A DNA stretch of 23,174 bases from contig JAHQXB010000032.1 of NCBI GenBank assembly GCA_029856435.1, forward strand, positions 1-23,174, written 5' to 3'. Below, piece by piece: positions 35 through 3,435 of this stretch. Positions within the stretch are counted from its first letter, which is position 1. Each line of letters starts with the position of its first letter. The position numbers and the translations under genes are program-made. The DNA comes from Candidatus Jordarchaeia archaeon (GTDB taxonomy: Archaea; Asgardarchaeota; Jordiarchaeia; Jordiarchaeales; Jordiarchaeaceae). The notes below the pieces were generated by a model. It saw only the letters and a list, made by a program, of their open reading frames with translations. It did no database searches and was not told the DNA's origin.

Positions 35-1636
35 TTAGTATTTTATTTCTTGGGAGTTTGAGAGGATTTCTTTGGGTGTTTTTAGGCTGTTTATGTCCAG
101 TGAGTAGTAGCGTTCCATTTCTATTTTTACTTTTTCTGGTAGGTTGATTCCGTCTCTGTGTGCCCAGTAGGTTTTTCCTTTGGGTTTTTGTAGTGGTTCT
201 CCTTGCTTTATTATGATTATTCCATTTTTTATGGTGTAGAGTGTTTGGGAGAGGGCTTTGATTAGTGCCTCTGTTTCCTGTGCAGGGTCTTGGGTTTGGG
301 GGTTGAAGTCGTATATTGCGATGTCTGCGTCTGAGCCTACTGATAGGTTTCCTTTGTTTGGTAGGTTTAGGGATTGTGCGGGGCTGGCGCGGGTTATTAT
401 TGCTATTTCGTAGAGTGTGTATTCTCGATTGATGGAGTGTAGTGGTGTGTCGGCTTCTAGTTTGACTTGGTCTCGGGCTTTTTTGCTTAGGAGCCATCCT
501 ATTATTTGGGGATAGTGGGTGATTAGTCCCAGGTTGGGGTGATCTACCGACAGCTGGATTTGCCAAGGATCCTTTACTTTTAGTGCTAGTTCCAGCCCTG
601 TGGCCCACATGATGCTCCCAGTTTTATCCATTTTATATTCGGTGGGTGTGGCTCCAAAGACTGCTTCAAGTTCAACTTGGTCAGTGAATATTTTTTTGCC
701 TCTACTAGTTGGGATTAGCAGCTGGTTGTCTGCATAGAGGCTTATTGTTTGGTGGGGCACCATTTGTCCTATGTCTGCTTCTACGTTGGGGTGACTGTTT
801 ATGTATTCTGCTATTTGTTCTGCTTGGGATTCAATGGATTCGTTTCCTCCGTAGCTGTGTAGTTGTGCATGTGCAAGGTGTATGGTTCTCTTCTTTTTGT
901 TGGGCTTTATTTCTTCTAGAGCTTTTAGTGTTTTGAGTGTTGTTTTGTAGTTTCCTGGCTTTCCTGCATTGTTGGGATGTATGTGGACGGGGTGTGGCAG
1001 TCCCAAGCGCTCATTTGCCTCTGCTATTATTTTGATGACGTCTAGGGGTGACACTCCGAGGTGCTTTATGGGTTCTTCTATGTTTGTTATTTCCTTTTTG
1101 AGGCTCCACATTTCGCTTCCTGTGGGGTTTAACAGTTTTACTCCATAGGTTTTGGTGGATTCCAGTAGCCATGAGATTATGGTCGCGGCTTCCTCTGCGG
1201 ATTTTTTCCTCACTGCGGGTAATAGATACCAGTAAACGTCTAGTAGCAATAGGCAGGCGTGATCCAGTGAGGGTATATCTAAAAATTCCAAGTGGGTGTG
1301 CAAAGCCTTTGTGGGTGAAACTGCAGCTTCGACGGCGAATGTATAGCCCATTCTTGAATATGTTAAGCCCACTTTTGGAGCGGTGAAAAGAAACTCGTCG
1401 GATGAAGGGGGGAAAAGCATGCGTGCAAAGTTCACATGTTGTGAGGCTATATGGGTGTGAATATCTATCCCGCCGGGGAGAATCATTTTTCCCTTAACGT
1501 CTATGATTTTGGCTTCATTTTCATTCACTGATTCAACTATCACTCCTTTTTTGATGGCTAGGTCCATACGTTCCCCATTTATCTTGTTTGCCGGGTCAAA
1601 AACAAAGCCATTCTTTATGAGAAGTGATTCAATCAT
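35..1636 (-). CDS. fwdA: Formylmethanofuran dehydrogenase subunit A-like amidohydrolase (FwdA/FmdA)
   Basis: Motifs DPANKING, GGIDIHTHIA, RMGYT, YGVK, LGLPHPVHIHPNNAGKPGN, HLAHAQLH, LSVDHPN and GNLSVGSDADIAIYD match FwdA. Start moved to ATG 1636 (MIESLLIKNG), which overlaps the fwdD stop. Confidence 0.88.
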   Translation of the reverse strand: MIESLLIKNGFVFDPANKINGERMDLAIKKGVIVESVNENEAKIIDVKGKMILPGGIDIHTHIASQHVNFARMLFPPSSDEFLFTAPKVGLTYSRMGYTFAVEAAVSPTKALHTHLEFLDIPSLDHACLLLLDVYWYLLPAVRKKSAEEAATIISWLLESTKTYGVKLLNPTGSEMWSLKKEITNIEEPIKHLGVSPLDVIKIIAEANERLGLPHPVHIHPNNAGKPGNYKTTLKTLKALEEIKPNKKKRTIHLAHAQLHSYGGNESIESQAEQIAEYINSHPNVEADIGQMVPHQTISLYADNQLLIPTSRGKKIFTDQVELEAVFGATPTEYKMDKTGSIMWATGLELALKVKDPWQIQLSVDHPNLGLITHYPQIIGWLLSKKARDQVKLEADTPLHSINREYTLYEIAIITRASPAQSLNLPNKGNLSVGSDADIAIYDFNPQTQDPAQETEALIKALSQTLYTIKNGIIIIKQGEPLQKPKGKTYWAHRDGINLPEKVKIEMERYYSLDINSLKTPKEILSNSQEIKY

Positions 1637-2030
1637 TGGCATCCTTTCCCAATAGTTTTCCAAAGAGTTTTTCTGGATCTAACACTTCTTCCTTTGTGGT
1701 TTCAATGCTGGCCTTTAAAACATAGCAGGAATTACTCCCTGTAACATCTATGTCCGGGTCTATTATAGCATTTAACCATGGCCCATTGGGCATGAGTGCC
1801 AATCCCTTTTTGGTCTCGTCTGTTTGGTAGGCTTTAACAACGACGCTCCCAAATTTTGTAGTCACTTTAACACAGTCACCATTTTTAATTCCGCGGCTAC
1901 CCATATCCTCCTTATTCATGAGTATTACTGCTGTGGAATCCACGTAACTTTTTGGGTCTGGATTTTCAACCATCATCCTGTTTTGCTCAATTGACCTTGC
2001 ATTACACAACAGTATTTCCAGCTTACCCAT
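1629..2030 (-). CDS. fwdD: Formylmethanofuran dehydrogenase subunit D-like (molybdopterin dinucleotide-binding domain)
   Basis: MNKEDM..GIKNGDCVKVTTKFGSVVVKA and GLALMPNGPWLNAIIDPD match FwdD; translationally coupled to fwdA. Start chosen at ATG 2030 because the ORF-track N-terminal extension looks non-homologous. Confidence 0.8.
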   Translation of the reverse strand: MGKLEILLCNARSIEQNRMMVENPDPKSYVDSTAVILMNKEDMGSRGIKNGDCVKVTTKFGSVVVKAYQTDETKKGLALMPNGPWLNAIIDPDIDVTGSNSCYVLKASIETTKEEVLDPEKLFGKLLGKDAND

Positions 2031-2340
2031 CAGAAGTCCTACTAAAGACATAGAAATCCGCCTCAGGCAAGCTAACAGAGTAGAAACCAGTACATAAGTT
2101 TTATGAACAAAAAATTTGACTGCACTGTAGCCGACGTCCACTTTTACGTTTTATTAAGTATTCTATCCAACTTTCCTGAGAGGTTCACGAAATTGGGAGC
2201 CAAATCGCCACCTTCACGCCAGCCATAAACGAGTGGGCCCCCTGCATGTAAAAAAGTTACTGTTATATGTTTAAGATTCGGTGGAGCCTCCCATATTTTG
2301 AACAAGTATGGAAGGGGAGCAGACTTAAATTAGAGGCAAG

Positions 2341-2377: not shown

Positions 2378-3270
2378 ATGGTCTTGGTTAAGGGATGGGT
2401 CGCTGAGGTGTTCTCTTCCTACCAAATCCCCCAAAAGGAGGGGGAGGTAAAGGAGAAGGAGGTAGCGTCAGCGGCTCGTGTTATGGAAAGCGTCAGATAT
2501 AGGAGGAGTGGAAGCTATTCCTTCGTCGAATCGCTCGATTCGCGGGCTGCAACCTAGCTATGGGGGAGTTTGGAACTAGGGGCTGCAGGTGGTGCGACAT
2601 CTTATATAACATGCTAAGACGCGAATCACCTGGAGCTCAAAAACCAGACGCAACTCAGCTTAGAGTGGAAGAAAGCCCCGGGACTGGAAAATTCGCAGGG
2701 CAAGCAAATCCCGTAGATCCAGCAACTCTTTGCAGCTATGTGAGAAAACTGAAAACTGCGGATCTTCACTCGGTATCATTTACTGGTGGGGAGCCTTTAC
2801 TTCAAATGGATTTTCTGAGGGAAGTTTCAGAGAACCTTGTCTCAGAGGGTTATATTCTCTTTCTTGAGACTAATGGTTCTTTACCTAGGTGTGCTTCAAA
2901 GGTGGCTGAACTTTTTGAATACTGCTGCTGTGATATTAAAGATGAGTCGGCGGGGGCTGCTTCAGACTGGAGAGCTCTAGTGGAGAGAGAGTTGGAAACC
3001 ATACAGGTTTTAGTTGAGGCAAAGGCAAAGACCTTCGCCAAAGTTGTAGTTACATCCCAAACAAAATCAGAGAATATTGAATGGTATGCTAGGGAGCTTG
3101 CTAAGTTGGGATGCCCCCTATGTATTCAGATTGTATCTCCATATGGCGAAGTGGAGGAAAAACCCACAATAAAACAACTGTTCCAGTTCACGGAGGCCGC
3201 GGCGAAGTATCTCCATAAGAATGACATTTCAATATCAATTCAAGCCCATAAAGTGTTGGGAATACTCTGA
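2378..3270 (+). CDS. queE: 7-carboxy-7-deazaguanine synthase QueE (radical SAM), intron-split: join(2378..2425,2452..2500,2531..2598,2626..3270), 269 aa
   Basis: Spliced N-terminus reads MVLVKGWVAEVFSSYQ|GEGGSVSGSCYGKRQI|FARFAGCNLAMGEFGTRGCRWCD|SPGAQ, restoring the QueE motifs E-x-F-x-S-x-QGEG, F-x-RF-x-GCN and C-xx-CD. Downstream are VSFTGGEPLLQ, LETNG and SIQAHKVL. Exons total 810 nt = 270 codons. queD follows. Confidence 0.9.
2426..2451 (+). other. Putative BHB-type intron 1 of queE (26 nt, frameshifting)
   Basis: ATCCCCCAAAAGGAGGGGGAGGTAAA. Central helix UACC(2420-23)/GGUA(2446-49), bulges AA^A(2424-26) and AA^G(2450-52), intron stem UCCCCC/GGGGGA. Splicing gives CAA|GGA = Q|GEG. The outer exon-exon helix is weak. 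Confidence 0.85.
2501..2530 (+). other. Putative BHB-type intron 2 of queE (30 nt, creates an in-frame TAG if retained)
   Basis: AGGAGGAGTGGAAGCTATTCCTTCGTCGAA. Bulges AU^A(2499-2501) and AA^U(2529-31), central helix AGAU/GUCG (3 pairs plus an A.G mismatch), intron stem GGAGGAG/UUCCUUC, outer helix AGCG/CGCU. Splicing gives ATA T|TC GCT CGA = I-F-A-R. Confidence 0.78.
2599..2625 (+). other. Putative BHB-type intron 3 of queE (27 nt, in-frame, would add ILYNMLRRE)
   Basis: ATCTTATATAACATGCTAAGACGCGAA. Central helix UGCG(2593-96)/CGCG(2620-23), bulges AC^A(2597-99) and AA^U(2624-26), intron stem UCUUA/UAAGA, outer helix CAGGU(G)G/CACCUG. Splicing gives GAC|TCA = CD|S. Confidence 0.8.
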
Positions 3271-3315
3271 ATCTTTCAGAAAGAATATGTATTGCCTTTT
3301 GTATGTACGTTTGCT

Positions 3316-3435
3316 ATGAAAAACCTTTAGGTTTTCATTCTTTATCTAAAAAGCGTAAGCGTATGAGGGTTTACCATGAAAAAGCTTTAGGTTTTCATCC
3401 TTTGTCTAAAGCGCTTTAGTGTATGGGTTTTTGGC
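3316..3435. repeat. Two imperfect 60-nt tandem units, each starting with inverted repeat ATGAAAA-N9-TTTTCAT
   Basis: Units start at 3316 and 3376; the first 35 nt are identical at 32 positions by manual alignment. Confidence 0.85.

What the first reader, a model, noticed from the sequence alone, without database searches (positions are those of the whole stretch)
2489..2535. Intron 2: retention creates a stop codon across the exon-intron boundary
The exon's last T (2500) plus the intron's first AG forms an in-frame TAG, so this 30-nt in-frame intron is still obligatory. Its central helix has an A.G mismatch (2495/2528), making it the weakest BHB of the three. Inference: it could be the rate-limiting, regulatory splice.
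Basis: partly seen in the sequence, partly recalled or inferred. Interest (0 to 1): 0.7.

Follow-up and report, generated by a model that had tools for sequence, protein, structure and literature searches.

The report
tRNA-type mini-intron 2 in Asgard queE
A 30-base insert with a stop codon at its start splits the tRNA-modification gene queE of an Asgard archaeon; it is almost certainly a tRNA-style intron that must be cut out of the mRNA, but nothing shows it is a special regulatory step.

Summary
The sequence facts hold. Bases 2501-2530 are a 30-nt insert in queE. T2500 plus A2501 and G2502 make an in-frame TAG. The central helix of the fold carries an A2495/G2528 mismatch. Removing exactly these 30 nt restores the motif RQIF.RF.GCN found in intron-less QueE.

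The insert sits at the same codon in all 13 Freyr-/Jord-type sequences examined (18-30 nt). Its hairpin shows compensatory changes, exon lengths are fixed, and exon differences are mostly synonymous. Other Asgard families lack it. The genome has two EndA paralogues and one RtcB.

New here: a public RNA-Seq contig matching a sister strain's exons at all eight variable positions lacks exactly 2599-2625, the third queE intron. So this mRNA is spliced by the same cutting rule. No RNA data reach intron 2.

"Weakest of three" is true only by central-pair count (3 of 4). In folding models, intron 2 has the most populated cleavable fold of the three. The A is forced by a conserved Gln codon; Jord relatives changed that codon and gained a C-G pair. 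"Rate-limiting, regulatory" remains untested speculation.

The scan has noted such mRNA introns many times on other DNA. In the papers I searched, archaeal mRNA introns of this kind are reported only for cbf5 and one Haloferax 5' UTR.

The parts
2384..2425 (+). queE exon 1. The start codon is uncertain: TTG 2384, ATG 2378 or ATG 2360. It ends ...VAEVFSSYQ.
   Evidence: Translation and alignment to intron-less QueE; GGTGAT Shine-Dalgarno-like motif just upstream (read from sequence).
2426..2451 (+). Intron 1, 26 nt, frameshifting. Central helix UACC/GGUA, bulges AAA and AAG.
   Evidence: present in all Freyr and Jord relatives (19-26 nt), absent from other Asgard families.
2452..2500 (+). queE exon 2, 49 nt (GEGG...GKRQI plus the first base of the Phe codon).
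   Evidence: Length is 49 nt in all 13 sequences. Codon differences from the window are mostly synonymous, e.g. 6 synonymous / 0 non-synonymous against G002.
2489..2492 (+). 5' strand of the outer exon helix h (AGCG), pairing with 2532-2535 (CGCU).
   Evidence: MFE fold. Pair 2489/2535 is A-U in 5 and G-C in 4 of 11 sequences; 86% of cells paired. The metagenome relative L032 has AACG/CGUU.
2495..2498 (+). 5' (exon) strand of central helix H (AGAU), facing GUCG 2525-2528. A2495 faces G2528 as a mismatch.
   Evidence: Three pairs are invariant in 11 of 11. The fourth is A.G in Freyr-type and C-G in Jord-type sequences.
2499..2501 (+). 5' bulge AUA, with the predicted cut between 2500 and 2501.
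   Evidence: Unpaired probability 0.94-0.99; invariant in 13 sequences.
2500..2502 (+). In-frame TAG spanning the exon 2 / intron 2 boundary.
   Evidence: kept in all 13 relatives; no PylS in the genome.
2501..2530 (+). Intron 2, 30 nt, in frame. It contains the hairpin h' 2502-2511/2515-2524 and the 3' strand of H, 2525-2528.
   Evidence: Removal restores RQIF.RF. In h', 94.8% of cells are paired and 4 pairs change on both sides. Length is 29-30 nt in Freyr-type and 18-23 nt in Jord-type sequences.
2529..2531 (+). 3' bulge AAU, with the predicted cut between 2530 and 2531. It lies in an internal loop opposite U2493 and C2494.
   Evidence: (unpaired probability 0.86-0.99 with 25-40 nt flanks).
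2531..2598 (+). queE exon 3, 68 nt (F)ARFAGCNLAMGEFGTRGCRWCD. It holds the radical-SAM cysteines in a CX11CX2C arrangement.
   Evidence: Length is 68 nt in all 13 sequences. The same-length insert between the first two Cys is present in intron-less QueE of other lineages.
2599..2625 (+). Intron 3, 27 nt, in frame and without a stop in this genome. Central helix UGCG/CGCG, bulges ACA and AAU.
   Evidence: Exactly these 27 nt are left out in an RNA-Seq contig of run X3. That contig's eight differences from the window equal those of G001's exons, and G001's DNA keeps the intron. Relatives have a TAG inside it or lengths that are not multiples of three.
2626..3270 (+). queE exon 4 (SPGAQ... to the stop codon).
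   Evidence: Pfam Radical_SAM 35.3 bits; homologues named QueE; single copy in the genome.

Best explanation
Bases 2501-2530 are a genuine bulge-helix-bulge (tRNA-type) intron in the pre-mRNA of the single queE gene of a Freyrarchaeaceae (Asgard) archaeon. It is the second of three such introns (2426-2451, 2501-2530, 2599-2625).

Mechanism proposed:
- The transcript folds so that exon bases 2495-98 pair with intron bases 2525-28. A 10-bp intron hairpin sits on one side and a short exon-exon helix on the other.
- The splicing endonuclease EndA cuts two bases 3' of each strand of that central helix. Two paralogues are present, so it is probably the broad-specificity (alpha-beta)2 form.
- RtcB joins the exons, giving ...GKRQI-FARFAGCN...

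Without removal the ribosome stops at TAG 2500-2502, before the iron-sulfur cysteines.

The A.G mismatch is a cost of keeping the conserved Gln codon (CAG) in the exon strand of the helix. The TAG follows from the bulge and hairpin sequence.

Splicing is most likely constitutive, like that of the many relaxed tRNA introns of this lineage.

Shown here: sequence, fold, conservation, covariation, presence of the enzyme genes, and RNA-level removal of intron 3. Inferred: cleavage and ligation at intron 2 itself, and which enzymes do it.
For: **Exact boundaries**
- Deleting 2501-2530 gives a one-gap alignment over 264-265 columns to intron-less QueE P0016 and P0018.
- A shift of one base either way loses the conserved Phe (read from the sequence).

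**Conservation**
- The insert sits at the same codon in 8 Freyr-type and 5 Jord-type sequences, with lengths 18-30 nt.
- It is absent from three other Asgard families.

**RNA structure**
- 90.3% of cells pair, against 31-55% when partners are slid.
- 5 pairs change on both sides.
- 0 of 500 shuffles reach the observed covariation score.

**Exons are translated in the spliced frame**
- Exon lengths are fixed at 49 and 68 nt.
- Codon changes are mostly synonymous.

**Enzyme genes present**
- Two EndA paralogues.
- One RtcB.

**RNA evidence for the same gene**
- A contig of a true RNA-Seq run lacks exactly 2599-2625.
- It differs from the window at eight positions, the same number as G001's exons; the six that the tool lists are G001's variants. 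G001's DNA keeps that intron.
- This confirms the cutting rule on a neighbouring intron of similar relaxed geometry.

**Other**
- queE is single copy.
Against: - No RNA read or contig covers the intron 2 junction. The X3 contig starts at 2581, and a search for short spliced protein fragments found nothing.
- The motif is not canonical: 3 of 4 central pairs, and the outer helix is displaced by two unpaired bases. [quoted passage not shown] The BHB shape by itself is therefore weak evidence.
- Contigs of runs X1 and X2, labelled metatranscriptomic, keep all three inserts. The tool flags them as probably DNA, and one spans the upstream intergenic region. If they were RNA, unspliced transcript would be abundant.
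Confidence: 0.85

Rival explanations
1. One reading: because its central helix has an A.G mismatch, intron 2 is the slowest of the three to be cut. It would act as a rate-limiting, regulated step tuning QueE output, for example according to EndA/RtcB load.
For: - It is the only one of the three introns with 3 of 4 central pairs, and this holds in all 8 Freyr-type sequences.
- Jord relatives replaced the otherwise invariant Gln codon by Thr or Ser codons (ACG, TCG). This creates a C-G pair and a longer outer helix, which suggests that this pair matters for fitness.
- G2528 could mutate to U to pair with A2495, yet it is invariant in all 13 sequences.
Against: - Folding models give intron 2 the highest occupancy of a cleavable fold: P 0.19-0.65, against 0.013 for intron 1 and 0.022 for intron 3. 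Ensemble cost is 1.0 kcal/mol against 2.3-2.7.
- Intron 3, with the low predicted occupancy, is seen spliced.
- About 40% of annotated Asgard tRNA introns lack a canonical motif, so relaxed substrates are routine.
- The mismatch is explained by the coding constraint alone.
- No retention or kinetic data exist.
Confidence: 0.08
2. The insert stays in the mRNA and the ribosome skips it (translational bypassing, as in phage T4 gene 60), or the TAG is read through.
For: A stop codon directly followed by a stable hairpin at the 5' end of the gap resembles the gene 60 take-off site (from my own knowledge of that system; sequence).
Against: - No landing codon matches the take-off codon AUA. The only nearby candidate, AUC 2530-32, would lose the conserved Phe.
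- Jord inserts of 18, 19 and 23 nt cannot be read through in frame.
- No PylS is present.
- Intron 3 of the same gene is removed at the RNA level.
Confidence: 0.02
3. queE is a decaying pseudogene, or the inserts are assembly errors, and only a truncated product from ATG 2560 is made.
For: Database gene calls for this clade start downstream or in the wrong frame (P0001-P0007).
Against: - The same three inserts occur in 13 independent assemblies.
- Exons upstream of 2560 have fixed lengths and mostly synonymous differences.
- A product starting at 2560 lacks the first cluster cysteine and the QGEG motif.
- queE is single copy and lies next to queD.
Confidence: 0.02

Closest known systems
BHB intron in the cbf5 pre-mRNA of Crenarchaeota (Desulfurococcales, Sulfolobales; PMC2738675, reviewed in PMC10485636)
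   Same: - A short intron inside a protein-coding sequence.
- A relaxed BHB fold.
- The host has a two-subunit EndA.
- The gene encodes an RNA-modification pathway enzyme.
- Lineage-specific gain.
   Different: - A different gene (queE) and a different phylum (Asgard, class Jordiarchaeia).
- Three introns within 200 nt of one gene rather than one.
- Splicing at this particular intron has not yet been seen in RNA.
BHB intron in the 5' UTR of Haloferax volcanii HVO_1309 (PMC7714728)
   Same: An mRNA substrate of the archaeal splicing endonuclease. Cleavage was shown in vitro, and a review reports the spliced RNA as the major product in RNA-Seq (PMC10485636).
   Different: That intron lies in the untranslated leader, so it does not interrupt a reading frame. 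The host has a homodimeric EndA.
Non-canonical tRNA introns of Freyrarchaeaceae and Jordiarchaeaceae (PMC11291895; bioRxiv 10.64898/2026.10.13.758758)
   Same: - The same lineages.
- The same presumed enzymes.
- Similar sizes.
- Frequent relaxed motifs (about 58-60% canonical).
- Repeated lineage-specific gains.
   Different: Those introns interrupt tRNA genes. Neither paper, in the passages I searched for these terms, describes introns inside protein-coding genes.

Membership tests
Archaeal BHB (tRNA-type) intron, strict hBHBh' / HBh' / hBH definition (Marck & Grosjean 2003, as restated in bioRxiv 10.64898/2026.10.13.758758) | [quoted passage not shown] | tested here: not met
   AGAU/GUCG gives 3 pairs plus A2495.G2528 in all 8 Freyr-type sequences. 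The 5 Jord-type sequences have CGAU/GUCG, 4 of 4.
Archaeal BHB (tRNA-type) intron, strict definition | Two 3-nt bulges on opposite strands, flanked by at least one adjacent outer helix of 2 or more pairs. | tested here: met
   - The 5' bulge AUA is clean and is followed directly by a 10-bp h'.
- The 3' bulge AAU faces two extra unpaired bases (U2493, C2494) before the 4-bp h, so only the h' side is canonical.
Archaeal BHB intron, relaxed class | At least 3 of 4 central pairs, with cut sites in unpaired bases 2 nt 3' of each central-helix strand. | tested here: met
   By itself this class is common by chance.
Archaeal BHB intron (functional criterion) | The cut sites predicted by the motif rejoin the exons into the functional product. 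| tested here: met
   Removing 2501-2530 restores RQIF.RF.GCN and a one-gap alignment with intron-less QueE.
Archaeal BHB intron (functional criterion) | Structure is conserved with compensatory changes while sequence and length vary. | tested here: met
   4 pairs of h' change on both sides, and one pair of h does. Lengths are 18-30 nt.
Archaeal BHB intron (functional criterion) | The host encodes the splicing endonuclease EndA and the ligase RtcB. | tested here: met
   Two PF01974 matches at 108 and 80 bits; one PF01139 match at 579 bits. Only the presence of the genes was tested, not their activity.
Archaeal BHB intron (functional criterion) | The spliced RNA is observed. | not testable with these tools
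   The only RNA contig (X3) starts at 2581. It shows intron 3 removed but does not reach intron 2.
QueE, 7-carboxy-7-deazaguanine synthase (radical SAM) | Radical-SAM domain with a three-Cys cluster motif, an N-terminal QGEG motif, and homology to named QueE. | tested here: met
   - Pfam PF04055 scores 35.3 bits, above the 29.5 cut-off.
- Best database hits are named QueE.
- The spliced product is about 53-55% identical to P0016 and P0018.
- queD (PTPS) lies 500 nt downstream.
- Enzyme activity was not tested.

The most novel reading that the evidence does not exclude
The mismatched central helix makes intron 2 a cleavage step that is sensitive to EndA dose or to temperature. QueE output, and with it supply of the archaeosine precursor preQ0, would then track the cell's spare tRNA-splicing capacity. 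The Gln-to-Thr/Ser codon change in Jordiarchaeaceae would be a lineage that gave up this brake.
Probability: 0.07. Interest if true: 0.8.

Novelty: new member of a known kind. Interest (0 to 1): 0.55.

Why it matters
In the papers I could search, archaeal mRNA splicing by the tRNA-splicing enzymes is reported for one coding sequence (cbf5) and one 5' UTR (HVO_1309).

- **Density.** A single Asgard gene with three such introns packed into its first 250 nt is a far denser case. One of the three is now seen removed in public RNA data.
- **Lineage.** It lies in a lineage close to the origin of eukaryotes.
- **Evolution.** Intron 2 shows how exon coding and intron-recognition structure compete for the same bases: a Gln codon set against a base pair.
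- **Annotation.** Every database QueE of this clade that I inspected is truncated, read in the wrong frame or read through an intron.

Tried and rejected
- **A fourth BHB-like fold at 2559-2582**. Rejected as an intron: the 8-9 residues it encodes (AMGEFGTRG) have same-length counterparts in intron-less QueE of other Asgard families and of Hydrothermarchaeales (CX11-13CX2C).
- **Extended exon-exon helix 2471-80/2541-50** seen in the MFE fold. It is not complementary in Jord sequences and shows no compensating change (read from the alignment).
- **Calibrating central-helix mismatches on this genome's own tRNA introns.** ARAGORN found only 6 tRNA-like hits genome-wide, two with implausible 664- and 2109-nt introns and none in the window, so this failed. 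I used published figures instead.
- **The metagenome scan** added only two useful loci.
- **Short spliced protein fragments in the protein collection.** None found.
- **Copies of the intron elsewhere in the genome**, allowing up to 7 substitutions. None found, so it is not a recent repeat family.
- **Rfam.** No family matches in the window.
- **PylS.** None over the cut-off.
- **Runs X1 and X2.** Their contigs keep all three inserts. They are flagged as probably DNA and one spans the intergenic region, so they say nothing about retention.

Full report
**Where and what.** The window is contig C165 of a 3.54-Mb, 181-contig genome. Its closest protein relatives are labelled Freyarchaeota / Freyrarchaeum, an Asgard group. 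The finding lies in the 5' part of a plus-strand radical-SAM gene:
- Pfam PF04055 scores 35.3 bits.
- Homologues are named 7-carboxy-7-deazaguanine synthase QueE.
- The gene is single copy.
- It lies 500 nt upstream of a 6-pyruvoyl-tetrahydropterin synthase (QueD-type) gene.

**Checking the observation.**
- The sequence and a script confirm TAG at 2500-2502, in frame with the preceding ...GKRQI.
- They also confirm a 30-nt stretch 2501-2530, and A2495 opposite G2528.
- The MFE fold of 2489-2535 is -16.7 kcal/mol, with z = -3.25 and none of 200 shuffles as stable. It contains:
  - a 4-bp exon-exon helix (2489-92/2532-35)
  - three central pairs (2496-98/2525-27)
  - a clean 3-nt bulge AUA (2499-2501)
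  - a 10-bp intron hairpin (2502-11/2515-24)
  - GAAU (2528-31) unpaired
- Two further exon bases (U2493, C2494) are also unpaired. The 3' cut site therefore sits in an internal loop rather than a pure bulge.

**What defines the boundaries.**
- Intron-less QueE proteins read ...E[VI]FSS[YF]QGEG....GSC.GKRQ.F.RF.GCN...(8-13 residues; none in P0014)...C.WCD[ST]P... These come from other Asgard families, from Hydrothermarchaeales and from unnamed metagenome records.
- The window matches this only if three stretches are removed: 2426-2451 (26 nt), 2501-2530 (30 nt) and 2599-2625 (27 nt).
- The product then aligns to P0016 and P0018 with a single gap in 264-265 columns, at about 53-55% identity.
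- For each of the three, the positions given by the BHB rule coincide exactly with the protein-defined junctions. The rule places the cut two bases 3' of each strand of a 4-position helix formed by the last exon bases and the intron's 3' end. I checked this geometry against the definition quoted in bioRxiv 10.64898/2026.10.13.758758.
- Moving intron 2 by one base either way replaces the conserved Phe (read from the sequence).
- A fourth BHB-like fold at 2559-2582 is not an intron. Its translation has same-length counterparts in intron-less homologues.

**Comparative evidence.**
- I collected 13 sequences: the window, five genomes of the same genus, five of a second family of the same order (Jord-type), and two metagenome contigs.
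- Every one has an insert at the intron 2 site. It is bounded by the invariant GATAT|AGG ... GTCGA(A/C)|T. Lengths are 29-30 nt in Freyr-type and 18-23 nt in Jord-type sequences.
- Six genomes of three other Asgard families have no insert.
- On an 11-sequence alignment, the proposed structure pairs in 90.3% of cells, against 31-55% when partners are slid.
- Five pairs change on both sides, four of them in the hairpin. No shuffle of 500 reaches the observed covariation score. The caveat is that the sequences are related and few.
- Exons 2 and 3 are exactly 49 and 68 nt in all 13 sequences.
- Their codon differences from the window are mostly synonymous: 6 synonymous and 0 non-synonymous in exon 2 against G002, and 15-19 synonymous against 10-13 non-synonymous versus Jord-type sequences.
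- The exons are therefore translated in the frame that exists only after splicing.

**Enzymes.**
- The genome holds two EndA-family genes. This is consistent with the two-subunit, broad-specificity endonuclease. The preprint reports two distinct full-length paralogues in 44 of its 60 Asgard genomes.
- It holds one RtcB.
- No PylS is present, so TAG is a stop.

**RNA evidence.**
- One public run recorded as RNA-Seq of a sediment metatranscriptome (X3) has a 221-nt contig, depth 17.5, covering 2581-2826. Exactly 27 nt are left out at 2599.
- The contig differs from the window at eight positions. The exons of sister genome G001 also differ at eight over the same span. The six positions that the tool listed (2649, 2651, 2653, 2701, 2713, 2733) carry G001's variants.
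- G001's DNA keeps the 27-nt insert, with an in-frame TAG inside it.
- The simplest reading is a spliced queE transcript of a G001-like strain. This confirms both the splicing of this mRNA and the cutting rule, on an intron whose outer helix is also displaced, by one unpaired base.
Removal of intron 2 itself therefore remains inferred.
- Two runs labelled 'metatranscriptomic WGS' carry contigs with all three inserts. The tool flags them as probably DNA, and one runs through the intergenic region.

**The mismatch and 'weakest of three'.**
Intron 2 has 3 of 4 central pairs in all eight Freyr-type sequences, while introns 1 and 3 have 4 of 4 in the window.
- All three introns in the window lack a directly adjacent exon helix of two or more pairs.
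- Thermodynamic modelling points the other way (37 °C parameters, forcing only the canonical pairs of each central helix, with no credit for A.G):

| Intron | P of cleavable fold, local contexts | P in the 282-nt context | Ensemble cost |
|---|---|---|---|
| 1 | 0.013 | 0.013 | 2.7 kcal/mol |
| 2 | 0.36-0.65 (it is the MFE) | 0.19 | 1.0 kcal/mol |
| 3 | 0.022 | 0.022 | 2.3 kcal/mol |

- Intron 3, with a low value, is the one seen spliced.
- The preprint on Asgard tRNA introns reports only 58-60% of annotated introns at canonical boundaries. Relaxed substrates are therefore routine for these enzymes.

**Why the A is there.**
- A2495 is the second base of a CAG codon. This Gln is present in every intron-less homologue examined, and a Gln codon always has A at that position.
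- Jord-type sequences have ACG or TCG (Thr or Ser) instead. This gives a C-G fourth pair, and in four of the five an A-U that extends the outer helix.
- I infer that RNA-structure selection overrode the protein constraint in that family. This suggests the pair has some fitness value.
- It does not show that the Freyr-type intron is slow or regulated.
- G2528, which could pair if it were U, is invariant in all 13 sequences. I cannot explain this.

**The stop codon.**
- The TAG is conserved in all 13 sequences.
- Its T is the first base of the Phe codon, its A is the third bulge base, and its G opens the hairpin.
- Intron 3 has no stop in this genome but has one in sister genomes.
- The stop guarantees that unspliced mRNA yields only a peptide of about 40 residues. 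I see no evidence that it was selected for that.

**Rivals.**
- Translational bypassing or read-through is excluded by the Jord inserts of 18, 19 and 23 nt, by the lack of a matching landing codon, and by RNA-level removal of intron 3.
- Pseudogene or assembly error is excluded by the conservation pattern.
- The regulatory reading stays possible but is unsupported.

**Comparison with what is known.**
- Reviews and primary papers in the searched library list cbf5 (coding sequence, Crenarchaeota; PMC2738675) and HVO_1309 (5' UTR, Haloferax; PMC7714728) as the archaeal mRNAs spliced by the endonuclease. One review expects more (PMC10485636).
- Papers on Freyarchaeia and Jordiarchaeia describe very intron-rich tRNA genes. 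In the passages I searched for terms such as 'protein-coding' and 'mRNA', they do not describe protein-gene introns.
- Earlier notes of this scan report the same kind of mini-intron in many other genes of this genome and in other Asgard genomes. They also report introns 1 and 3 of this gene.
- Intron 2 is therefore a further member of a phenomenon this scan already knows, though I did not find it in the searched literature.

**Verdict.** 'Weakest' is true only by pair count. 'Rate-limiting, regulatory' is not supported.

Noticed in passing
G000 contig C93:302-1636 (minus strand); locus L114 about 1499-1603: The only rtcB (RNA-splicing ligase) gene of this genome carries a 30-nt in-frame insert with a TGA, between ...TLPD and AHQGYGFPIGG. 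It has a canonical fold: central helix CCCG/CGGG, bulges ACA and AAG, hairpin stem CAUG/CAUG. The ligase mRNA itself therefore seems to need splicing. Earlier scan notes report the same in other Asgard genomes.
   Followed up: partly
window 2599-2625; L008, L009, L010, L012, L014: In Jord-type relatives the third queE intron is only 15-17 nt, with no intron hairpin, so the 5' cut site lies in the loop. In G007 (L008) it is 15 nt, in frame and free of stops, and the database protein P0012 reads through it (SKKRK).
   Followed up: partly
window 3301-3420: Two tandem 60-nt copies (78% identical) lie between queE and queD. Each contains an imperfect palindrome ATGAAAAnCTTTAGGTTTTCAT. Contigs of runs X1 and X2 cover 3326-3364 at roughly four times the depth of the queE contigs, so the unit may be repeated elsewhere. 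No Rfam family matches.
   Followed up: no
proteins P0001-P0007, P0012, P0022 (relatives' gene calls): Every queE gene call of this clade that I inspected is N-terminally truncated (201-227 aa), starts in a wrong frame (P0002, P0022) or reads through an in-frame intron (P0012). Annotation pipelines miss these introns.
   Followed up: yes
window 2494-2496 and the same codon in L008-L014: The Gln codon (CAG), invariant in the other QueE sequences examined, is Thr (ACG) or Ser (TCG) in Jord-type sequences. This change completes the intron's central helix and, with ACG, extends the outer helix. It is a possible case of an exon evolving to serve intron recognition.
   Followed up: partly
window 35-2141 (minus strand): Upstream and divergent from queE lie two overlapping genes: an amidohydrolase (Amidohydro_3) and a small molybdopterin-dinucleotide-binding-domain protein. 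From my own knowledge, the pair resembles formylmethanofuran dehydrogenase subunits A and D.
   Followed up: no
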